64,000 nucleotides of DNA, from the IMG/VR virus record IMGVR_UViG_3300042879_004569. One strand, given 5' to 3'. Of the stretch, positions 21,831 through 62,403 are shown piece after piece. Under the pieces are notes generated by a model. It was not told where the DNA came from. It saw only the letters and a program-made list of their open reading frames with translations, and did not search any database. A program made the translations under genes and the position numbers. Each line of letters opens with the position of its first letter. The first letter of the stretch is position 1. The stretch comes from an uncultured virus (IMG/VR IMGVR_UViG_3300042879_004569) (lineage: Duplodnaviria; Heunggongvirae; Uroviricota; Caudoviricetes).

Positions 21831-22490
21831 ATGTCGGATTTTGCATCTGCAATTACTTTAATTTGCAAGTACGAAGGCTTTAATGAAAAAGCCTATCCAG
21901 ATCCGACGACAGGTGCTGAACCCTATACCATTGGGTTTGGCACCCAATTTTATCCAGATGGCTCTCCTGTCAAAAAAGGACAATGTTGTAGTAAAACAAA
22001 AGCTTTGGAATACTTATTCCACGAAACGCAAGTCATTGATACTCAACTGACAAAATTAAATCTGGGGCTGGATGATTACATGCGCCAAGCCTTGATTTCT
22101 TTTATTCATTCAATTGGGTGGGAAGCTTTTCTTTACAGTTCAATCGTTGATGACATTGAACGAGAAGACCTCAAAAACGCCACCCTGGAAATTGGCAATT
22201 GGATTTTTGACGAGCACCATCAAGTTGTTGGTGGCTTACTGGATCGGCGCCGAGAAGAGATCAGTTTGTTCCTGTCGGAAGTAGAAGTCAATCCCTGGGC
22301 CTCCACTGAAATTCTTTTGAGTGCATTCCGCAACTATACCGCAGCTCCTCATGAGGTAAGAGCAATTCGCACCTTGGAAGAAAAGCTGAACCCATACCTT
22401 TTAACTGAGTTTGCAAATAATTTTTGCATCAACGAAAGCTCTTGGATTTACGCTGATACAGATGAATTTGATTTCATCTATAACGCTTAG
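21831..22490 (+). CDS. GH24 (T4/P21-like) lysozyme with C-terminal extension
   Basis: KYEGF..KAYPD....PYTIGFG and GLLDRRREE. Confidence 0.85.
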   Translation: MSDFASAITLICKYEGFNEKAYPDPTTGAEPYTIGFGTQFYPDGSPVKKGQCCSKTKALEYLFHETQVIDTQLTKLNLGLDDYMRQALISFIHSIGWEAFLYSSIVDDIEREDLKNATLEIGNWIFDEHHQVVGGLLDRRREEISLFLSEVEVNPWASTEILLSAFRNYTAAPHEVRAIRTLEEKLNPYLLTEFANNFCINESSWIYADTDEFDFIYNA

Positions 22491-46888: not shown

Positions 46889-46957
46889 TTATAGTTACAT
46901 TGATCGCCTCTTGAACGCTCCTAAGCCTCTCAACGATGCTCAAACCTGGGGCCAACT

Positions 46958-47059
46958 CGTCTGTTGCGAACCAATAGGATAGGGCGGCCCCCTGCTTGGG
47001 TACTGGACGCAGTATTTTTAGTAGGATTGGCGGTGCGGGTTCGAATCCCGTGCAGACGA
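46958..47059 (+). ncRNA. tRNA-like element, possibly degenerate tRNA-Ser(GCT)
   Basis: 7-bp acceptor stem CGTCTGT/GCAGACG, T arm GCGGG-TTCGAAT-CCCGT, CTGCT loop; anticodon and D stems poor. Confidence 0.5.
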
Positions 47060-47072
47060 TTTATTTAAAACA

Positions 47073-54336: not shown

Positions 54337-54684
54337 CTAATCGGGCAGAGATTCAAGAGCTTGGCGAATAGTGTTTGCTGCATCTTGTTCAAACGAAGCA
54401 ATAGAAATATCATTTAATGCTTTTAACGCCTGCTCCTTCAAGCTCGGTGGCTTGGGGCGGCGATAATTATAAAACTCAATTACATCTTCTTCCTCCCACG
54501 CAGCGCACTGCTTAAGGTAATTTCCACAAGCTAGTAACTCTTTATCGGCGCCCCACTGGGCGGCGCGGGTGGCGACAAAATAAGTAAATCCGTTTCCGTT
54601 TGTATTGCCGGAACAATGCCAGTCAGCTTCCCACTGCTCTACCAGATCCGGCGGCGGGGTGATGGGGTGTTGTTGGTCAGTCAT
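54337..54684 (-). CDS. HPITPPP/WGADQEL family protein, copy 1
   Basis: MTDQQHPITPPPDL...AAQWGADKEL...RRPKPPSLKEQAL...TIRQALESL. Confidence 0.7.
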   Translation of the reverse strand: MTDQQHPITPPPDLVEQWEADWHCSGNTNGNGFTYFVATRAAQWGADKELLACGNYLKQCAAWEEEDVIEFYNYRRPKPPSLKEQALKALNDISIASFEQDAANTIRQALESLPD

Positions 54685-55060
54685 TGATCGACTCCAGTGC
54701 GCGGCGGACAACGTTAGCAACATCTGCTGACAGGCGATCATCAGCAACAGCGGTGTCAATCGCCAGCAACGCCTGATCCTTCAAGCTCGGCGGCTTGGGG
54801 CGGCGGGCGTCGCGGAGTTTCTCACTCCAGAACCCGTCATTCAAATTATCCAATACTTCACAACACGCCTCCAGCTCCTGGTCGGCGCCCGCTTGGAACG
54901 CTTGGCGGGCAACGTTCTTGAGCCGGTTGGTGGTGATGGTGATGACAGCTTGCTCCGAGGGGTCCCACGGGTAGCCATCGTCGATCAGCCATTCGCCCAC
55001 TTGCTCATCGCTCAGCTCTGGCGGTGGGGTGATGGGATGCCTGTAATCTTCTTGGGTCAT
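54677..55060 (-). CDS. HPITPPP/WGADQEL family protein, copy 2
   Basis: HPITPPPEL...GADQELEACC...RRPKPPSLKDQAL...VRRALES. Confidence 0.7.
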   Translation of the reverse strand: MTQEDYRHPITPPPELSDEQVGEWLIDDGYPWDPSEQAVITITTNRLKNVARQAFQAGADQELEACCEVLDNLNDGFWSEKLRDARRPKPPSLKDQALLAIDTAVADDRLSADVANVVRRALESIND

Positions 55061-55124
55061 GGTTTCTAGGGAACTGTGGCCGGGGCAGGAGCCGCAAACT
55101 CGCTGCCTTATCACTATACGCCAG

Positions 55125-55592: not shown

Positions 55593-56057
55593 TTACTTTT
55601 TGGAGCCTACACGTTGCAGCCAATACCAATAAGCATTGGTTGCGTTTTGATGAAACCGTTTACCCAAAAAAAGTTTTAGTTTCTTTTGCTCCAGGTCTTC
55701 CATTTTGCTTTCGTTGTAAGGCAAAACCTCACCTTTATCCCTTAAGAAATTCATCTCCAGATCATTCATTTGAATTTGCAAATCAAAATCAGTAACTGCG
55801 TGTTGATGGCAATTCATTTTGATTCGAGCATCTTCTGAATCAACTGGAGCATCAATCTTTTGGTAAAAGTTGTCTTGGATACTCGGATGCTTCCAATTCC
55901 ACATGGGAGGTACTGTAGATTCGTTTTGAGCGGATACCATATTCTTGGTTGACTTTGACTCCATGCGGTAAGTGGCGGCCATTGGTGTATGCGTTGCGGA
56001 TAGCGTCAAGGTTCGGAACAATTTTTTTAGTTGTTTTAGGTTCAGTTCTTTCTTCAA
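55593..56057 (-). CDS. hypothetical protein (true start probably near 55904)
   Basis: C-terminal part fills the intergenic gap. Confidence 0.5.
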   Translation of the reverse strand: MKKELNLKQLKKLFRTLTLSATHTPMAATYRMESKSTKNMVSAQNESTVPPMWNWKHPSIQDNFYQKIDAPVDSEDARIKMNCHQHAVTDFDLQIQMNDLEMNFLRDKGEVLPYNESKMEDLEQKKLKLFLGKRFHQNATNAYWYWLQRVGSKK

Positions 56058-56553
56058 GAACTTCCCCCGTTAAAGACCGTAGCACAACTTTTTTCGTTGT
56101 GTTGATTTCTTCTTCAACACAATAAAGCAAACGATCTTTCTCCTCCCAGGCATCTGGCTCAGAAGAGATTTCAACTGTTAGCTCACGTTTTTTAACAAGA
56201 ATGAATTGATAATTCTTGCCCGTGATGTTGTTTGTGTCAACCGGCAATGCCCGCTTAAGCCAATTAAGCAATCCCTTTAGTTGTTTTACTTGAGACTCAT
56301 GATGTTTTTTAGCCTGGGCAATAAGCTCCCCTTCTTTTTTAATGCGCTCTAACGCATCTTCATGAGAAGCCAAGGCATAGTAAATCCGATCTACTTTTTC
56401 GGATCTAAGCATTGCACAGTTTTCCAGCTCAGCCTTTGCCAGTTCTTGGGATTCAACAGTGAGAAGAGGCAGAGACTTTTCGAGAGCAGCATAATGCTCA
56501 TACAACTGAAGAACGTTTAGTTTATTGAGTTTTGTTTGAGTAATTTGAGACAT
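55852..56553 (-). CDS. siphovirus Gp157-like coiled-coil protein
   Basis: EKVD.IYY......E....KKE.......K.......LK.LL; PNLDAI......G..LP.GVKV. Confidence 0.6.
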   Translation of the reverse strand: MSQITQTKLNKLNVLQLYEHYAALEKSLPLLTVESQELAKAELENCAMLRSEKVDRIYYALASHEDALERIKKEGELIAQAKKHHESQVKQLKGLLNWLKRALPVDTNNITGKNYQFILVKKRELTVEISSEPDAWEEKDRLLYCVEEEINTTKKVVLRSLTGEVLEERTEPKTTKKIVPNLDAIRNAYTNGRHLPHGVKVNQEYGIRSKRIYSTSHVELEASEYPRQLLPKD

Positions 56554-56586: not shown

Positions 56587-56709
56587 TTAAGCTGCTTGCC
56601 ACAATTTATTTCCAATGTAGGCCAGCATTGCTGCGCATGCTGTCCACATAAGATCAGTCAACAACTCCGAAAGCTTGGGGAAAATAACAGAAGAAATGAA
56701 TTCAAACAT
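56587..56709 (-). CDS. 40-aa hydrophobic peptide
   Basis: MFEFISSVIFPKLSELLTDLMWTACAAMLAYIGNKLWQAA, 21 nt after pseudoknot motif. Confidence 0.55.
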   Translation of the reverse strand: MFEFISSVIFPKLSELLTDLMWTACAAMLAYIGNKLWQAA

Positions 56710-56730
56710 GATTGAAATGAGTTAAAAGGT

Positions 56731-56759
56731 CTGGGCAGTTTAACGTCTTACCCAGGACG
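56731..56759 (-). promoter_or_regulatory. pseudoknot-like leader motif, copy 1
   Basis: CGTC-CTGGGTAA-GACG-TTAAAC-TGCCCAG. Confidence 0.65.
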
Positions 56760-56777
56760 ATCAGTCTATCAGGTCTG

Positions 56778-57227
56778 TCAACCCCCTTCGTTAAGTTTGG
56801 TTACCGTGTTTTCCCCTGGAAAATTTGAGTCTCGATCTTCTGCAAGAAAACCGTTTTTATTTTGTTCGACAAACGTTTTCATGTAGTCAACCAAGGCTTC
56901 AATTTTTACATCCACGGATTTAATTTCCTCCATCATTTCCTCCCGTGTTGGGATAATTCCATAGTCGTAACTATGTTCTTTAATGGCTTCAGGATCATTT
57001 TTCTTTTGATGAACCCGAGCAACATCTTCAGCACGGTATCCAACATCTTGGAAAAAATCCCAAAGAAGTTTGTCCGTGTAACGATCAAACTTTAAACCCC
57101 TGGTTTCAGCTCGAAGCTGCACCGCCAAAAATAAATCGGCAAGTTTTTCAGCTTCTTCTAAAACAATTTTTTTAAACTGTTCGTCAGACAATCCGTAAGA
57201 ATCAAAAGCCATGGAATCAAATTTCAT
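56778..57227 (-). CDS. hypothetical protein
   Basis: 149-aa ORF. Confidence 0.6.
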   Translation of the reverse strand: MKFDSMAFDSYGLSDEQFKKIVLEEAEKLADLFLAVQLRAETRGLKFDRYTDKLLWDFFQDVGYRAEDVARVHQKKNDPEAIKEHSYDYGIIPTREEMMEEIKSVDVKIEALVDYMKTFVEQNKNGFLAEDRDSNFPGENTVTKLNEGG

Positions 57228-57423
57228 TAGTGGAATACTTTTCGATAGCTTTGGTTAAAGCATCAAGAATAAATTTTTCTTGACCTTCTTTACCCAAAGA
57301 ATTCCAATAGTCAAGCTCGGGATCTGTTTCATCCCATTCAATGTTGATGGACATGGATCCATCTTCTTCGTCAATGCATTCAATCGTTAGCTTTTCGATC
57401 CAGTTGCTGTTCAACATGGCCAA
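57217..57423 (-). CDS. hypothetical protein
   Basis: EDGSMSINIEWDETDP motif. Confidence 0.55.
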   Translation of the reverse strand: MAMLNSNWIEKLTIECIDEEDGSMSINIEWDETDPELDYWNSLGKEGQEKFILDALTKAIEKYSTNEI

Positions 57424-57589
57424 TCAGAACGTTTTGGGCGTAGTTTTCGTGGTGCATTCTAAGGTCAGCAGCGAGTTTTACAAGCTCCCAGTGAACATCT
57501 TCTGGAAGCTCAAGATCATAGCGCGTGTGGCTAGCCATGTGATTTTGAGTTGCAAGTTGACGTGCGTATTCAAGAATGTCATCAGTCAT
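57380..57589 (-). CDS. hypothetical protein, possibly ribbon-helix-helix
   Basis: YDLELPEDVHWELVKLAA pattern. Confidence 0.45.
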   Translation of the reverse strand: MTDDILEYARQLATQNHMASHTRYDLELPEDVHWELVKLAADLRMHHENYAQNVLIGHVEQQLDRKAND

Positions 57590-57816
57590 TTGTCCAGTGA
57601 TATCACAGGGCGTCGGGCGGTGCGGAGTTGTTTACTCCAATATCCATCATTAAGATTGTCTAACGCCTCACAACACGCCTCTAACTCTTGGTCAGCGCCC
57701 CACTGTGCGGCTTGAGCAGCAACTTGAGGAAACATCGGCTCGTTGTGATTTGATTCTTTTTGCCATTCTTTCACTAGTTTTAATGGTGGAATAAATAAAG
57801 TTTGTTGAGCAGTCAT
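57586..57816 (-). CDS. HPITPPP/WGADQEL family protein, copy 3 (shortened)
   Basis: PPLKLVKEW...AAQWGADQELEACCEALDNLNDG.WS..LR.ARRP. Confidence 0.65.
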   Translation of the reverse strand: MTAQQTLFIPPLKLVKEWQKESNHNEPMFPQVAAQAAQWGADQELEACCEALDNLNDGYWSKQLRTARRPVISLDK

Positions 57817-58773
57817 TTACTTTTTAGAAAAAGCAGAAAGTTGTGGCAGCGCGGTACCTGGGAAAGGAACATAGTCCGCAGCCATCATATTGAAAAACAA
57901 ATCCCAGGCATCTTTTTGTGTGAATACTTCAGATTGTTTGTAGGTTCGCCAATGAGTCAACGGAGCCTGGGCCCCATATTTTGTATGTAGCAAAACAAAT
58001 CGCCCATCACTAGTGGCATCAGCAGGAGGTGCATACCACCAAGCAACGCACTTGTCAGGAGCTTGACCACGGCAACTAGAGCGAACACGAGCGCGTTCAC
58101 ACAGCAATTCTCTGTACTTGGCAAACCAAGTTAAGTGAATACAAAACGGTTTGTAACCCTGGATTTCTTTTTGAAAATCTTCAAGATTGTTTAACTGTCT
58201 TTGAAAAGATCCGCATGAGCAATACGGTTCCATTTTCGGTAATTCCTGGTGGCCACCAGGCTTAATATCTTCGCCCATTTCAGGAGCATCAAAATCAATG
58301 GTGTTATTAATCTCTTGGATACCATCTGGGGCAACCAAATGTCCAAGATCAGTTTGCTCTGAATGTAGCAATGATATGAGTTTAGAACGATCAGATAGAT
58401 GAATGAATTTATCAATCCACGCACGTTGAAGTTGCGCAGATGGAAGCCGATGACTGAGTTGGTGTTGGTAGTGCCACCCTTTGAAAATGATGTAAGAATT
58501 ACTGTGCCAAATGGATGGGCCACGGTAGTTAGGTCCTAAGTATGAGAAGAAGTCTTTAAGACGTTTTGTGTAGGAGACGAAGGCGTCTTTGATGGGCTGT
58601 GTGGGAAATACACGCTCTGCACCATCGCGATACACCACAACACAAGAATCAGATCGGAGAGTAATGGCGGCGATATCTGAATCGTCAAAATCCTGGAACG
58701 CACGACGGATATTAGTTCGCGAATAAATAAGAGCTTGCGCATTGTTAAGTTGCGTAATCGTTTGAGTTGTCAT
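57817..58773 (-). CDS. SWIM zinc-finger protein
   Basis: YCSCGSF...FCIHL. Confidence 0.65.
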   Translation of the reverse strand: MTTQTITQLNNAQALIYSRTNIRRAFQDFDDSDIAAITLRSDSCVVVYRDGAERVFPTQPIKDAFVSYTKRLKDFFSYLGPNYRGPSIWHSNSYIIFKGWHYQHQLSHRLPSAQLQRAWIDKFIHLSDRSKLISLLHSEQTDLGHLVAPDGIQEINNTIDFDAPEMGEDIKPGGHQELPKMEPYCSCGSFQRQLNNLEDFQKEIQGYKPFCIHLTWFAKYRELLCERARVRSSCRGQAPDKCVAWWYAPPADATSDGRFVLLHTKYGAQAPLTHWRTYKQSEVFTQKDAWDLFFNMMAADYVPFPGTALPQLSAFSKK

Positions 58774-58796
58774 GATTTGAAAACAATTGAGATGAA

Positions 58797-59003
58797 TTAA
58801 ATGAAGAGTTGATCTTCTTCTTTGGTTACATAGGTTGCACCTTGCTGTCGGTCAACCATTTTCTTAGCAATCTTGCCAACCTTGTAAGAGGCATAGACGC
58901 CAAGCACCAAGTATAAAGGACTGGCCGCCAGCCCGGCAACCACCCCGCCAACCAGGCCAACAGCACTGGAAGCAAGCAGTGAAGTTTTAGTTGCTTTGTC
59001 CAT
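58797..59003 (-). CDS. small membrane protein
   Basis: Gly/Ala/Val hydrophobic segment. Confidence 0.55.
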   Translation of the reverse strand: MDKATKTSLLASSAVGLVGGVVAGLAASPLYLVLGVYASYKVGKIAKKMVDRQQGATYVTKEEDQLFI

Positions 59004-59069
59004 TGTGTTTGTTAATACAATCCGTAAATTGAATTTACTTTTAACTGTGTAAGTAAAATAGATTAAACA

Positions 59070-59345
59070 TTGGATCTATCCATGGAAGAAATAAAATACG
59101 TTCCGTTAAATAAATTTCAAATTGAACCAACGCTTGATGACAAGTTTTGGCTTGAGAAAATTAAACGTTCCATTGAAGATTGCAATTCAGTTAGCGCCTT
59201 AAAAGAGATGGCGACCTTGCTTGCGCAGATCGCCACCAACAGACAAGGAGTAATTAGAGGGCTGGTTCAAGATATGTTCATCTTTAATAATGTTGCCATT
59301 AATCAAGATGACATTGCCAACCCTCAAATTCCCGCTAAGGAATAA
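59070..59345 (+). CDS. hypothetical protein, weakly NblA-like
   Basis: PTLDDKFWLEKI...SALKEMATLL...RQGVIRGLV; lone + gene with TAAAAT box. Confidence 0.45.
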   Translation: MDLSMEEIKYVPLNKFQIEPTLDDKFWLEKIKRSIEDCNSVSALKEMATLLAQIATNRQGVIRGLVQDMFIFNNVAINQDDIANPQIPAKE

Positions 59346-59348
59346 TCA

Positions 59349-60449
59349 TCAGAACGACATATCTTCTCCAGTTGTTTCATCCCGAGCGGGAAGAGCTTTT
59401 ACATCAACAGGATCAGCAGTCCTGGAGACAGGCAGAATTTCAACACCTGCTTTGATTCCGTAGGCACCGTTGAGCTTTTCAGCATCTTGACGGGCGTGCT
59501 GGTTGATGTAATCGTTGAACATTTCCTGGTACTTCCAGGTTGATTCACGATCTTCATCAGGAATCGACAGACGATTCAATGATTCGACTGCGTCTTCTTG
59601 ACTGCTGTAATCAGGGATGTTAAAAGATTCAATTGCGCAGATCTCAACGTTGTTGGCTCCACGCATTTCGTTGGCAAGTACCGGAGCAAAAACGGTAGTG
59701 GCGTAGAACTTTTCATTAAACGCAAGCGGCACTTCTGAATCCAAAGCCTTGCTCAGACACTTGGACATTTCCTTTTCGTACATGCGTACTTTTTCGGAGA
59801 TGTCAGTGCCATTCAGTCCTTTCAACGTCAGCACCATTGGGATCTTGTGAGCCCGTTTGTTTTCCTGCGTCAAGATATACACCAGGTATTTGGTGCGAAC
59901 GCTGTACTTACGCTTGTACATCTCACCTTTGCTGTTGGCAAGATCAGATGCAAGCTTGTCGGCTTCAAATAATTCTTTGACATCAGGATTGTCAAAGGTA
60001 CCAATCGTTTGCCTCATCCCTGAGGTTTCTTCCACCATAAGTGGGGAACGCAAAAGGATTTGAATTCGAGGCTCAACAAAATTAAGTCCTTCTTCCACTG
60101 AAGTGTTGGGAGCCATGCCGAAAGTTTGCTTGTAGTTCCAAATGACTGAACCTTTAGCAAAGTCACTTTCAGTGGCGTTCCATCCACAAGTGTCAAGGTC
60201 TGAGTTCCGCACGAACCAACCTCGTGTCTTGGACTTGTTGAGAGGTTGAATGGTGACGAGATTTTGGTAGCCGGACACAAACTTTTTATCTTGGAAAAGT
60301 TTGAAGGAATCCAAGCCACGGGTAGCAAGAGCAGAGGTCTTTTTCACAGTCATGGTCGTAGTAGTTTTTGCAGAAGGTTTGGATTGAGTGATTGCCTCGA
60401 TGTTATCCATCTGGGCATCACTTGTCATGTCAGTCAGAGTTGCTGTCAT
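59349..60449 (-). CDS. DUF5895-like protein, candidate DNA-metabolism protein
   Basis: PRIQILLRSPL, RTKYLVYIL...N...H.IP.VLTLKG; high-expression codon usage; acidic tail ending in F. Confidence 0.5.
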   Translation of the reverse strand: MTATLTDMTSDAQMDNIEAITQSKPSAKTTTTMTVKKTSALATRGLDSFKLFQDKKFVSGYQNLVTIQPLNKSKTRGWFVRNSDLDTCGWNATESDFAKGSVIWNYKQTFGMAPNTSVEEGLNFVEPRIQILLRSPLMVEETSGMRQTIGTFDNPDVKELFEADKLASDLANSKGEMYKRKYSVRTKYLVYILTQENKRAHKIPMVLTLKGLNGTDISEKVRMYEKEMSKCLSKALDSEVPLAFNEKFYATTVFAPVLANEMRGANNVEICAIESFNIPDYSSQEDAVESLNRLSIPDEDRESTWKYQEMFNDYINQHARQDAEKLNGAYGIKAGVEILPVSRTADPVDVKALPARDETTGEDMSF

Positions 60450-60471
60450 GGTTAGTTCATAATGGAACGGC

Positions 60472-60498
60472 GGATGCTTTTAACGTCATCCCAGGACG
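60472..60498 (-). promoter_or_regulatory. pseudoknot-like leader motif, copy 2
   Basis: CGTC-CTGGGAT-GACG-TTAAAAGC-ATCC. Confidence 0.6.
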
Positions 60499-60503
60499 TA
60501 CCA

Positions 60504-60737
60504 TTAAGCTACTTCCATTGCCAATTCCAACTTGTAGTCTGGTTTGTTTTGTAAGTAATCTTCATGTTCGTCTACAATGGTTTGCATTGCAGAATGAATA
60601 CTTTCCCTGGCGTAACCCATCGAAAGTAAAAAACAAACAAAGTGGTTCATTACTTCATCAGTAGTAATACCAAAAGATTCATAAATAATTTTTGAATCTT
60701 GATCTTGATAATTAAAAACAACTTTGTGTTCAGTCAT
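60504..60737 (-). CDS. hypothetical protein
   Basis: 77-aa ORF (F..FLLSMGY). Confidence 0.55.
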   Translation of the reverse strand: MTEHKVVFNYQDQDSKIIYESFGITTDEVMNHFVCFLLSMGYARESIHSAMQTIVDEHEDYLQNKPDYKLELAMEVA

Positions 60738-60945
60738 TATTTTTTTGCTTTGAGTTGTCGTGTTCTTCTTTAATAGCTACAAACAAATCAGCAATAGCAA
60801 AAGCTGCTTTTCCGATAGCAGTAGCATCCTCTACAAGATTGGCTTCAGAATTAGGAACACTATCAATGTATTTTGAAATGTTGTCTAAGAAAATTTCTGA
60901 AGCAACATAATCTCTGTAAGAATTTTCAGTAATGAAATGATTCAT
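60730..60945 (-). CDS. hypothetical protein
   Basis: RDY.A...AFAIAD motif. Confidence 0.55.
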   Translation of the reverse strand: MNHFITENSYRDYVASEIFLDNISKYIDSVPNSEANLVEDATAIGKAAFAIADLFVAIKEEHDNSKQKNND

Positions 60946-60951
60946 GGTGAA

Positions 60952-61746
60952 TTAAAAAGGTGCGTTTTCAAGATCAGGTGCAGAGCCATAATTTCCAGGA
61001 AGATCAGGCAGTCCGCCATCATTCCACGGATTGTCATCTAAAGTTTTACCACCCCAAAGAGAAGTGACCTTACTTCCCTCTTGTACTGTTGTTTGAGGTG
61101 TAATCTCTTTCCCAGGCAATGAAGGCTTGGGAGCCAGAGTCATATTAATAAGTTGAATTTTGGTTGCATGCTTACGTTCTTTGGTAGTGGAATCAGTCCA
61201 CTCGTCTGTAACCAAGCGACCATTAATAGTTAAGCCAACACCTTTGCGTGTAAAGTTTACAAGCAACTCAGCATTGTTTAATTTATCTTTATTTGTATTG
61301 ATTGCGTAGAAATTAAATAAATCCGCTTGATTTCTTCCTGTGTTAACAGAAAGAGTTTGATTACAAATCATCAAGCCATCGGCCGTTGTTTTAAATGCCC
61401 GCTCGTCTTCACGATGGATATCTTTAACGCAGCGGCCGCTGAGGATGACTGTATTAAACAAAGGGAATGTTTCATCAACCTTTGCGATAACGCCTCCATG
61501 GAGCGAAAACGTTCTGGTGTCAAGGTCGTACCGTAGCTTGGAACCATGAATAAAAATCAAAGAGTTTTTAGGAAGTCCTGAAATTTTTTCACCGGCCTTG
61601 CCGTAGATGTTAAGTTCAATTGGAGTTGCAGCTTTGTTACCTACGGGAGGCAACAAAAGATTACAACGCAATGCAGTGGAAGTGGCGCTGACATAAACCT
61701 CGCGAGGCGCTTCGGTTGTCTGTGCGCAAACGCTAACAAAGTTCAT
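60952..61746 (-). CDS. ssb: single-stranded DNA-binding protein (tandem OB folds)
   Basis: NTVILSGR..KD, KG..LTINGRL....WTD......H, acidic tail ending APF; N-terminal second OB-like unit. Confidence 0.78.
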   Translation of the reverse strand: MNFVSVCAQTTEAPREVYVSATSTALRCNLLLPPVGNKAATPIELNIYGKAGEKISGLPKNSLIFIHGSKLRYDLDTRTFSLHGGVIAKVDETFPLFNTVILSGRCVKDIHREDERAFKTTADGLMICNQTLSVNTGRNQADLFNFYAINTNKDKLNNAELLVNFTRKGVGLTINGRLVTDEWTDSTTKERKHATKIQLINMTLAPKPSLPGKEITPQTTVQEGSKVTSLWGGKTLDDNPWNDGGLPDLPGNYGSAPDLENAPF

Positions 61747-61765
61747 AAATCAAAAGTAGGGTAGA

Positions 61766-61792
61766 AGGCAGTTTAACGTCATGCCTGGGACG
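61766..61792 (-). promoter_or_regulatory. pseudoknot-like leader motif, copy 3
   Basis: CGTC-CCAGGCAT-GACG-TTAAAC-TGCCT. Confidence 0.65.
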
Positions 61793-61800
61793 ACGCAAGT

Positions 61801-62403
61801 TTAATCTTCCAGTTGAGCAGCGTCTTTTTTTGTAAAGGGTTTGTCACTAATCTCAGCGTTTCCAAAAGCCACTTTGTCTAAGTGATTAGGACCCATTACC
61901 TTTCCGTTCCAATCGGTTCCAACGGAAGACGGCTCAACACCATTCAACCAATGTTGAATTGATAAGAACACTGCCCCATTCTTTTCCCCTGAAAAACCAC
62001 CATGGATATCATTGGGTCTAACCCTTGTACATGAACCACGCAGCAATGCTGTCTTAAAAGTGCTATTAGGATTTTCGCAAATAAATTCTTCGGGTTGAAT
62101 TAGTTTCCCACTGTGCGACAAACGTAATTCTCCGCCTACATAAACTTCAATACTGTCAACGTTTGGATGCGTATGTTCAGGGACAATAACCCCTGGTGGA
62201 CCCATAAACAATTGAGTTTGAAATGGTGGTCGTCTATGCACAACCAAAGAAACAATATTCTCAACACTCCAAAATGGATTTTGAAAAGGAACAAAACCAA
62301 TCAAAGGAACTTCATTTAAAACCCAAAGAGCATAACGCTCCAGTTCATCCATTTCATCTAATGGAGTCCCTGGTGAAATGTAATTAACAAATTCTTTGTT
62401 CAT
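61801..62403 (-). CDS. cupin-fold protein
   Basis: PEHTHPNVDSIE...GG and P...HG metal-binding cupin motifs. Confidence 0.65.
   Translation of the reverse strand: MNKEFVNYISPGTPLDEMDELERYALWVLNEVPLIGFVPFQNPFWSVENIVSLVVHRRPPFQTQLFMGPPGVIVPEHTHPNVDSIEVYVGGELRLSHSGKLIQPEEFICENPNSTFKTALLRGSCTRVRPNDIHGGFSGEKNGAVFLSIQHWLNGVEPSSVGTDWNGKVMGPNHLDKVAFGNAEISDKPFTKKDAAQLED

What the first reader, a model, noticed from the sequence alone, without database searches (positions are those of the whole stretch)
56731..61792. Three-copy covarying pseudoknot leader before SSB and other DNA-metabolism genes
Seen: three minus-strand copies (56731-56759, 60472-60498, 61766-61792) of CGTC-N7/8-GACG-TTAAA-N, each ending 19-22 nt before an ATG. 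Stem 1 (CGTC/GACG) is invariant. The loop pairs with the 3' tail, with compensatory changes: CTGGGTA/TGCCCAG, GGAT/ATCC, AGGCA/TGCCT. That is an H-type pseudoknot pattern. The downstream genes are ssb, the DUF5895-like gene, and a 40-aa peptide leading into the Gp157-like gene. Known: T4 gp32 represses its own translation through a leader pseudoknot. Inference: this is a post-transcriptional regulon, possibly read by the phage SSB, or a translation enhancer or nuclease-blocking structure. I cannot name an RNA family for it.
Basis: partly seen in the sequence, partly recalled or inferred. Interest (0 to 1): 0.85.

Follow-up and report, generated by a model that had tools for sequence, protein, structure and literature searches.

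The report
Coremin-like RNA knot between phage genes
Three gene boundaries of this freshwater cyanophage carry a tiny knotted RNA fold that closely resembles a plant-virus RNA known to stop message-degrading enzymes, so phages probably use it as a roadblock that shields the message behind it, though nobody has tested this in bacteria.

Summary
The three copies are real (3 found, 0.01 expected). They form an H-type RNA pseudoknot whose two stems both covary in hundreds of relatives; stem 1 is not invariant family-wide. The window is a relative of Synechococcus phage S-EIV1, and the knot precedes ssb in 72 of 72 relatives. It is not an SSB regulon: elsewhere it precedes capsid scaffold genes, tRNAs, CRISPR-like repeats and terminators. 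No Rfam family matches. Its core shares sequence and pairing register with the plant-virus coremin RNA (xrRNA_C), which stalls Xrn1 and ribosomes, but it lacks coremin's loop G and required second hairpin, so it is a variant, not a member. Three tests bear on function. It piles up exactly 5 nt behind stop codons. It is found in 18 of 300 Bacillota genomes against 1 of 300 each in two groups where RNase J was not found. In cyanophages it sits 25-30 nt before SD-less start codons. Best reading (0.5): an RNase J roadblock that stabilises downstream messages. Rivals: ribosome insulator or initiation aid, or 3'-end cap. No RNA ends were observed. This scan reported the same family and the coremin reading before on other genomes.

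The parts
61766..61792 (-). Pseudoknot copy A: stem 1 61792-61789 with 61780-61777; loop 61788-61781; UUAAA linker 61776-61772; stem 2 = loop positions 3-7 with 61770-61766. 8 nt behind the stop of ORF 61801-62403; 25 nt from linker end to the ssb ATG
60471..60498 (-). Pseudoknot copy B: 7-nt loop, A.G apposition and a bulged stem 2; 5 nt behind the stop of ORF 60504-60737; 29 nt from linker end to the DUF5895 ATG (a 2-codon ATG-AAC-TAA frame lies at 60460-60452)
56731..56759 (-). Pseudoknot copy C: 8-nt loop, 6-7 bp stem 2; 18 nt behind the stop of ORF 56778-57227; 29 nt from linker end to the ATG of the 40-aa ORF
61747..61765 (-). Unstructured, G-poor spacer without Shine-Dalgarno sequence before ssb (like spacers at 60450-60470 and 56710-56730)
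   Evidence: MFE 0 to -2.3 kcal/mol in the three copies; 5% G and 1 SD-like word in 234 homologous spacers
60952..61746 (-). ssb gene, 264 aa
   Evidence: PF00436 E 1e-7; phrog_44; 66% identical to S-EIV1 ssDNA-binding protein
59349..60449 (-). DUF5895 gene, 366 aa
   Evidence: PF19247 E 3e-12
56587..56709 (-). 40-aa ORF, conserved behind the motif in relatives
   Evidence: cluster of 55
55852..56553 (-). Gp157-like gene, 233 aa, second cistron behind copy C
   Evidence: PF05565 E 3.5e-6, just under cut-off

Best explanation
A 27-29 nt H-type RNA pseudoknot works as a mechanical roadblock at cistron boundaries of a long phage transcript. SHOWN: the fold (both stems covary), that it lies on the sense strand as RNA, its spacing, its host skew and its likeness to coremin. 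INFERRED: the A-rich linker packs on stem 1 as proposed for coremin. After a host endonuclease cuts upstream, RNase J chews 5'->3' and halts at the knot. The downstream cistron (ssb, DUF5895, 40-aa ORF plus Gp157-like) is left on a stable message that begins with the knot, followed by about 20 nt of unstructured, SD-less leader, roughly the room a 30S subunit needs. The 5-nt gap behind stop codons is read as the least room a terminating ribosome needs to reach the stop without opening the knot. The result is more protein from selected genes of one operon, with no regulator protein needed.
For: Fold: 151 cells with changes on both sides against 38 +/- 13 in shuffles, 0 of 500 as high, slid controls at most 47; 135 of 140 and 101 of 111 hits found by stem 2 alone have 3 or more stem-1 pairs, against 0 of 26 for a control with broken stem 2. 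RNA and strand: 226 of 226 hits on the ssb strand; G-U 27% against A-C 2% at one stem-2 position. Coremin likeness: the motif GUCCGAAGACGUUAAACUAC (PMC10520033) shares stem 1, linker and CU. Residues needed for Xrn1 resistance (first loop pyrimidine, penultimate loop A, AAA, CU) are kept in 236, 236, 236 (by pattern) and 213 of 236 phage copies. Linker variants UAAAA and CUAAA occur in both. A Watson-Crick coremin variant also resists Xrn1 (PMC10321173). A flavivirus xrRNA blocks RNase J1 (PMC5760640). Synechocystis RNase J is a robust 5' exonuclease in vitro (PMC7283877). Host skew: 18 of 300 Bacillota genomes, 1 of 300 in the class of a Gammaproteobacteria-titled genome, 1 of 300 in the phylum of a Bacteroidales-titled genome (p 6e-5, or 0.04 if counted as 8 independent contexts). 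RNase J (TIGR00649) over cut-off: 0 of 81, 0 of 61, and 28 of 41 Cyanobacteriota. Among Proteobacteria, cultured-phage hits were mostly alphaproteobacterial: Roseobacter, Lentibacter, Celeribacter, Paracoccus. Tie to the downstream gene: before ssb in 72 of 72 loci while upstream genes vary; 188 of 234 lie 25-30 nt from the ATG.
Against: No RNA 5' end was seen: the only RNA run held 6% of the words and exists as contigs. Coremin needs a second hairpin and a G at loop position 2. The cyanophage copies have G there in 0 of 236, and only 9% of 233 have downstream folding of -3 kcal/mol or better. In the wider family the tight spacing is to the upstream stop (76 of 232 at 4-6 nt) while the downstream distance is broad or there is no ORF. 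In Bacillota 54% of 63 and 70% of 23 copies are followed by a U-run. About 17 of 135 loci have a tRNA directly behind the knot, where RNase P would leave it on the upstream RNA's 3' end. Intact copies occur in a Vibrio phage clade and a 3-bp-stem copy in crAss-like cr7_1, whose host groups showed no RNase J in my samples. The genome pattern was designed from cyanophage and Bacillota copies, which biases the host test. RNase J prevalence in the Bacillota sample itself was not measured (only the B. subtilis and L. lactis controls ring). In 16 of 230 copies the nearest long ORF ends inside the knot.
Confidence: 0.5

Rival explanations
1. Ribosome device. The knot sits at the mRNA entrance of a ribosome ending the upstream gene and blocks run-on scanning or coupling, and/or it helps load the 30S subunit on the SD-less leader behind it, so the downstream gene is translated independently and strongly.
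For: Sharp edge at 5 nt behind stop codons: 93 of 230 at 5 nt and 2 at 0-4 nt in S-EIV1-like phages; 46 at 5, 25 at 6, 5 at 4 and 2 at 0-3 of 232 in the two stem-1-free sets. Fixed 25-30 nt to the ATG with 1 SD-like word in 234. Coremin stalls scanning eukaryotic ribosomes.
Against: Does not explain copies before tRNAs, CRISPR-like repeats, a hammerhead-like RNA or terminators, or variable 18 to over 200 nt distances before SD-bearing genes. Genome compaction against ribosome footprints on both sides would give the same spacing. It does not predict the host skew.
Confidence: 0.2
2. 3'-end element. The knot caps the upstream message against 3'->5' exonucleases after a cut behind it, or with a U-run acts as a pseudoknot-based pause or terminator.
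For: Tight spacing to the upstream stop family-wide; U-runs behind Bacillota copies; copies directly before tRNAs (Nostoc phage NMeng1; Molivia, between ssb stop and tRNA-Gly); chromosomal copies followed by a promoter-like region or no gene.
Against: In S-EIV1-like phages only 6% of 195 copies have a U-run, the knot travels with the downstream gene, and termination there would cut off ssb. 3' exonucleases are general in bacteria (my knowledge), so the scarcity in two large groups is unexplained. It may hold for Bacillota and pre-tRNA copies and still not for this window; a two-way barrier is possible.
Confidence: 0.17
3. SSB autoregulation as in T4 gene 32: phage SSB nucleates on the knot and covers the leader, repressing ssb and partner genes.
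For: Always before ssb in relatives (72 of 72). T4's operator is a pseudoknot followed by unstructured RNA with UUAA(A) repeats (PMC3014915).
Against: T4's knot lies 67 nt upstream with the repeats 3' of it; here UUAAA is the linker inside the knot and the spacer is about 20 nt. This SSB is PF00436/phrog_44, not called gp32. The motif occurs before unrelated genes and non-coding RNAs in many phyla, and after ssb in Molivia.
Confidence: 0.05
4. DNA-level promoter or protein-binding palindrome, with TAAACT as a -10 box.
For: Some Staphylococcus phage records annotate the site as a BPROM-predicted promoter.
Against: Both stems covary while their sequences drift; G-U exceeds A-C on the sense strand; copy B and many others read TAAAAG; no sigma-70-like site falls on any of the three copies; the edge relative to stop codons points to ribosomes on RNA.
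Confidence: 0.03
5. Stop-codon readthrough or -1 frameshift stimulator fusing adjacent genes.
For: Coremin promotes -1 frameshifting in vitro; the 5-nt spacing resembles recoding spacers (recalled).
Against: Stop-to-ATG gaps fall equally in the three phases (60, 56, 61 of 177), only 22 are in frame and open, and 2 have a slippery heptamer.
Confidence: 0.02
6. Small-molecule riboswitch aptamer of preQ1-like size.
For: Compact H-type fold with invariant unpaired residues.
Against: No Rfam match even at E 10; downstream genes share no metabolic theme; no SD or terminator to switch in cyanophage copies.
Confidence: 0.03

Closest known systems
Coremin motif, xrRNA_C, of beny-, cucumo- and other eukaryotic RNA viruses (PMC6546385, PMC10520033)
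   Same: 4-bp stem 1 closed by C-G; first loop base a pyrimidine, penultimate A; UUAAA linker with essential AAA and tolerated U-to-A or U-to-C variants; CU after the linker; loops of up to 8 nt tolerated; often near stop codons or between genes.
   Different: In DNA phages, prophages and bacterial chromosomes. Loop position 2 is U or C, never G (0 of 236). A canonical 5-7 bp stem 2 replaces the non-canonical contact. No second hairpin in cyanophage copies. Function untested.
Watson-Crick coremin, xrRNA_WCC (PMC10321173)
   Same: Same stem 1 and linker, with a canonical loop-tail stem beginning behind AAA.
   Different: xrRNA_WCC has a 4-nt loop starting with an essential G, a 3-bp stem 2 that includes the last loop base, and still needs hairpin 2. 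Here the loop has 7-10 nt and starts with C, and the last loop base usually faces C unpaired (147 U.C of 192).
T4/T2 gene 32 translational operator (PMC3014915)
   Same: H-type pseudoknot in the leader of an SSB gene, unstructured RNA behind it.
   Different: 67 nt upstream, single target, UUAA(A) repeats outside the knot. This motif is multi-copy and general.
Class 3 xrRNA (dianthovirus/polerovirus type, PMC12397905) and flavivirus xrRNA (PMC5760640)
   Same: Pseudoknot-dependent block of 5'->3' exonucleases; the flavivirus RNA also blocks RNase J1; class 3 elements often lie in intergenic regions.
   Different: Larger folds (54 nt for ST9a, with T-loop and ring); no sequence likeness seen.
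STAXI (RF01728), GUCCY-hairpin, GP20-b (RF03003)
   Same: STAXI: pseudoknots near SSB genes. GP20-b: in the same scaffold-gene leader in one prophage.
   Different: STAXI and GUCCY alignments show other sequences. GP20-b matched 20 nt downstream of the motif, not on it.
Chloroplast PPR-protein roadblocks against RNase J (PMC3799425, search listing and start of abstract only)
   Same: A barrier between cistrons defines mRNA 5' ends by stopping RNase J.
   Different: A protein does it there; here it would be RNA alone.

Membership tests
Coremin / xrRNA_C | Hairpin 1 of about 4 bp closed by a 5' pyrimidine-3' purine pair | tested here: met
   C-G closing pair in 133 of 135 stem-1-free hits and in all three copies
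Coremin / xrRNA_C | Loop consensus YG...AD | tested here: not met
   Y 236 of 236, penultimate A 236, last D 211, but G at position 2 in 0 of 236 (first C and hairpin fixed by the search pattern)
Coremin / xrRNA_C | Spacer with AAA followed by CUAC | tested here: inconclusive
   AAA-CU in 213 of 236, including copies A and C; copy B has AAA-AG; the next bases vary with stem 2
Coremin / xrRNA_C | Second hairpin directly behind the spacer, required for resistance | tested here: not met
   MFE of the next 30 nt 0, -2.3 and -0.9 kcal/mol in the three copies; -3 or better in 9% of 233 homologues
Coremin / xrRNA_C | Stalls a 5'->3' exoribonuclease | not testable with these tools
   The single RNA run was uninformative
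xrRNA_WCC | Canonical antiparallel loop-tail stem | tested here: met
   Six pairs, 91% paired, four with changes on both sides
xrRNA_WCC | 4-nt loop beginning with an essential G, plus hairpin 2 | tested here: not met
   Loops of 7-10 nt beginning with C; no hairpin 2
T4 gene 32 operator | Pseudoknot in the ssb leader | tested here: met
   72 of 72 loci
T4 gene 32 operator | Long A+U-rich stretch with UUAA(A) repeats 3' of the knot; specific to the ssb gene | tested here: not met
   About 20 nt spacer, C- and A-rich; at least 18 downstream protein clusters; criteria
T4 gene 32 operator | SSB binds and represses | not testable with these tools
   needs bench work
Any Rfam 15 family (STAXI, GP20-a/b, preQ1 and others) | Score at or above the gathering threshold on the motif | tested here: not met
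   No hit on the motif in the window or in 60 loci
Intrinsic terminator | Stem directly followed by a U-run | tested here: not met
   No terminator-like site at the three copies; 6% of 195 S-EIV1-like copies have 5 or more U in 8 nt, against 54-70% in Bacillota

The most novel reading that the evidence does not exclude
Bacteria and their phages have a protein-free, 27-nt exoribonuclease-resistant RNA, of one lineage or design with plant-virus coremin. It is used across several RNase J-bearing phyla to carve stable mRNAs and non-coding RNAs out of long transcripts, and is placed by a ribosome-footprint rule 5 nt behind stop codons. Its covariation also supplies the loop-tail register that coremin studies could not resolve.
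Probability: 0.5. Interest if true: 0.85.

Novelty: new variant of a known kind. Interest (0 to 1): 0.72.

Why it matters
Exoribonuclease-resistant RNAs are described from eukaryotic RNA viruses; the papers I searched on coremin do not mention phages or bacteria. If this knot stops RNase J, it is a bacterial counterpart, far smaller than flavivirus xrRNAs, in at least 6% of sampled Bacillota genomes and in many phages. It would explain how phages with one long transcript set different protein levels, would give a minimal part for stabilising messages in cyanobacteria and Gram-positive hosts, and would offer a crystallisable Watson-Crick version of a fold with no solved structure as of the 2023 papers. 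The test is cheap: a 60-nt RNA and purified RNase J.

Tried and rejected
No whole genome is held; the nearest record G001 (26 kb) has no copy, so copies beyond the window edge are unknown (S-EIV1 has 7 against 1 for the control pattern, relatives 3-8). RNA evidence: one run, share 0.06, contigs only; no ends or levels. Single-strand folding cannot show pseudoknots and gave z of -0.8 to -1.4. The tree of 74 short rows is unresolved and served only for phylum labels. The Fisher test used 16 genomes, a miscount; the script's rule passes 18 (one, G452, is weak), redone; eight of them share one chromosomal context and three or four another. BLAST hits in Pseudomonas phage Peetri and E. coli phage ST32 lack a full stem 1; 1 of 5426 E. 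coli genomes gave a weak hit that I did not inspect. Class 3 xrRNA, STAXI and GUCCY were read and rejected. Recoding was rejected. No covariance model was built, because Infernal cannot hold the pseudoknot and 29 nt carry little signal. The genome searches did not report completeness. Supplements not seen: Weinberg 2017, Gezelle 2025, and three of the files of Fremin 2023, whose catalogue of over ten thousand viral RNA candidates may include this motif unnamed.


Full report
OBSERVATION. The pattern CGTC-N6-10-GACGTTAAA occurs three times in the window, all on the minus strand, against 0.01 expected. The genes behind the copies are ssb (PF00436), DUF5895 and a 40-aa ORF followed by a Gp157-like gene just under the Pfam cut-off. 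The only match of the SSB among 50,697 phage records is Synechococcus phage S-EIV1, 66% identical, which carries 7 copies on one strand. No whole genome is held for the window.

THE FOLD IS REAL. I fetched 75 viral loci by the SSB protein, not by the motif. Three were cut off at the gene start. Of the other 72, 66 matched a regular expression and the remaining 6 (5 distinct) show by eye the same element with a CUAAA linker. A relaxed pattern gave 236 distinct copies in these loci, S-EIV1 and the window; all 226 in the 75 loci lie on the ssb strand. Mutual information between loop and tail lies on the anti-diagonal, and G-U pairs exceed A-C (27% against 2% at one position), which fits RNA of the sense strand. 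On 129 distinct 8-nt-loop copies, 94.8% of cells pair, with 151 changes on both sides against 38 in shuffles and at most 47 in slid controls; relatedness inflates these counts. A cleaner test fixed loop and tail and left stem 1 free. Of 140 hits, 135 have 3 or more stem-1 pairs in dozens of sequence types; of 26 hits for a control with broken stem 2, none do. A second loop type gave 101 of 111.

ANATOMY. Stem 1 has 3-5 bp and closes with C-G. The loop is C-(5-7 nt)-A-H. The linker is usually 2 nt plus AAA. The tail starts CU (213 of 236) or AG (21). The penultimate loop A faces tail position 2, the last loop base usually faces C unpaired, and 4-6 further pairs complete stem 2. In S-EIV1-like phages 234 of 236 copies have an ORF within 80 nt, 188 of them at 25-30 nt from the linker. 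The spacer has 5% G, 1 of 234 has an SD-like word, and there is no second hairpin. The downstream proteins form 18 clusters; ssb, the 40-aa peptide and DUF5895 account for 55, 55 and 49. On the 5' side, 93 of 230 copies start exactly 5 nt behind a stop codon, 15 at 6 nt, 2 at 0-4 nt; in 16 the nearest long ORF ends inside the knot. The five bases vary freely and 11 upstream gene clusters have their mode at 5. The two stem-1-free sets, from a broad mix of viral contigs, repeat this: of 232, 46 at 5 nt, 25 at 6, 5 at 4, 2 at 0-3, 7 inside. From my own knowledge of ribosome geometry, this puts the first base of the knot at about the mRNA entrance when the stop is decoded. Fusion by recoding is not supported.

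WIDER SPREAD. A strict pattern found 84 stretches in 71 organisms among 185,579 species genomes: 48 Bacillota, 6 Saccharimonadota, 3 Cyanobacteriota, 2 each of Pseudomonadota, Bacteroidota and Chloroflexota, 5 single phyla and 3 unlabelled. One Pseudomonadota hit precedes a cyanophage-like ssb and is probably misbinned. In these genomes the knot lies 18 to over 200 nt before SD-bearing genes, often phage scaffold-like genes, and also before CRISPR-like repeats, a hammerhead-like RNA (both judged by eye), a tRNA and terminator-like hairpins. Cultured phages with intergenic copies that I read include those of Staphylococcus, Nostoc, Synechococcus, Arthrobacter, Rhodococcus, Corynebacterium, Microbacterium, Paracoccus and Roseobacter, and a microvirus. 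In even samples with one pattern and one rule (stem 1 of 3 or more, stem 2 of 4 of 5; seed genomes left out), 18 of 300 Bacillota genomes pass, against 1 of 300 and 1 of 300 in the groups around a Gammaproteobacteria-titled and a Bacteroidales-titled genome. RNase J passed its cut-off in 0 of 81 and 0 of 61 genomes of those two groups and in 28 of 41 Cyanobacteriota; the 13 misses are genomes of 1.6-2.2 Mb. Against this: an intact copy in a Vibrio phage clade, a 3-bp copy in crAss-like cr7_1, non-independence of the Bacillota hits, and a pattern built from Bacillota and cyanophage copies. Bacillota copies are mostly followed by a U-run (54% of 63; 70% of 23), cyanophage copies are not (6% of 195). 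About 17 of 135 loci have a tRNA directly behind the knot, 14 of them tRNA-Asp, probably from related phages.

WHAT IT RESEMBLES. Rfam 15 has nothing on the motif. A full-text search for the core led to the coremin papers. What I saw: PMC10520033, parts 1-4 of 6; PMC10321173 and PMC6546385, passages; PMC12397905, abstract, passages and Results; PMC5760640, PMC7283877, PMC3014915, PMC12370729, PMC5737381 and PMC10690425, passages; PMC2864571, passages and supplement hits; PMC3799425, listing only. Coremin is a 4-bp hairpin with a YGAD or YGNNAD loop, the spacer UUAAACUAC and a required second hairpin. It stalls Xrn1 one base upstream, slows scanning ribosomes and promotes frameshifting; a pseudoknot was proposed but not resolved. 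The phage element keeps the same stem, linker and most of the critical residues, and shows a long canonical stem 2. It fails two defining features (loop G, hairpin 2), so it works like coremin by inference but is not filed as a member. 'Phage' and 'bacteri' do not occur in PMC6546385 or PMC10321173. Searches for coremin, xrRNA, RNase J, phage and pseudoknot listed no paper on such an element in phages or bacteria. The library lacks most subscription papers, and the supplements of Weinberg 2017 and much of Fremin 2023 could not be read.

MECHANISM. I put 0.5 on an RNase J roadblock protecting the downstream cistron. It explains the coremin residues, the tie to the downstream gene in cyanophages and the host skew, and it is feasible: a flavivirus xrRNA blocks RNase J1 and cyanobacterial RNase J is a 5' exonuclease. 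The longer stem 2, or the ribosome loading 20 nt behind it, may stand in for hairpin 2 (inference). A ribosome insulator or initiation aid (0.2) and a 3'-end cap or terminator (0.17) explain the spacing and the Bacillota and tRNA contexts as well or better, and one knot may serve as a barrier both ways. SSB autoregulation (0.05), a promoter (0.03), a riboswitch (0.03) and recoding (0.02) fit poorly. No step of the function is shown: the one RNA run was uninformative.

EARLIER NOTES OF THIS SCAN. I reached the coremin reading, before looking. The look-up showed eight notes on other genomes with the same reading, and one with the 3'-cap reading before tRNAs. They are unchecked notes and are not counted as support.

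VERDICT. A real, very widespread, uncatalogued RNA pseudoknot; a new variant of a known kind; interest 0.72.

Noticed in passing
window 46917-46953 (+): Rfam abiF RNA match (45.4 bits, gathering 37), followed at about 47000-47060 by a tRNA-like stretch ending in a T-loop-like hairpin that ARAGORN does not call, just before a phosphoesterase gene.
   Followed up: no
window 21923-22012 (-): Single tRNA-Lys(TTT) call.
   Followed up: no
L482-L485, L488, L489, L493, L495 (Bacillota genomes): Eight chromosomal copies overlap the stop codon of a conserved ORF of about 20 codons with a strong SD and an H-C-x-x-G-like core, usually followed by a hairpin or U-run (read by eye). Possibly a leader peptide or small RiPP-like gene whose ribosome opens the knot; it breaks the 5-nt rule.
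   Followed up: partly
L257-L259: Several copies in one Firmicutes contig lie a few bases before what looks like a type III hammerhead ribozyme (by eye); Rfam gave no hit on L259.
   Followed up: partly
L205, L236: The knot sits directly before CRISPR-like repeat arrays in Bradymonadales- and Calditrichia-titled bins (by eye).
   Followed up: no
L286 (Nostoc phage NMeng1), L287 (Arthrobacter phage Molivia), L302-L420: Knot directly before tRNA genes; tRNA-Asp dominates one set.
   Followed up: partly
L201, L217, L223, L238, L246, L268, L272, L284: Scaffold-gene (GP20-like) leaders of Bacillota prophages chain the knot, a U-run and further small hairpins each followed by an A-run; one of these is Rfam GP20-b. 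These may be related mini-pseudoknots.
   Followed up: partly
L024, L041, L044, L071, L085, L087, L095: IMG/VR contigs with six-nt-loop motifs that fit the YGNNAD coremin rule, some with a strong second hairpin; whether they are RNA viruses was not checked.
   Followed up: no
genomes G153-G189 (13 small genomes in the Cyanobacteriota sample): No RNase J match in genomes of 1.6-2.2 Mb; identity of the group not known here.
   Followed up: no
window 54337-55114, 57586-57816 (-): Three or more small ORFs share a repeated stretch (HPITPP...; AAQWGADQELEACCE...RRPKPPSLK), a paralogous family in this arm.
   Followed up: no
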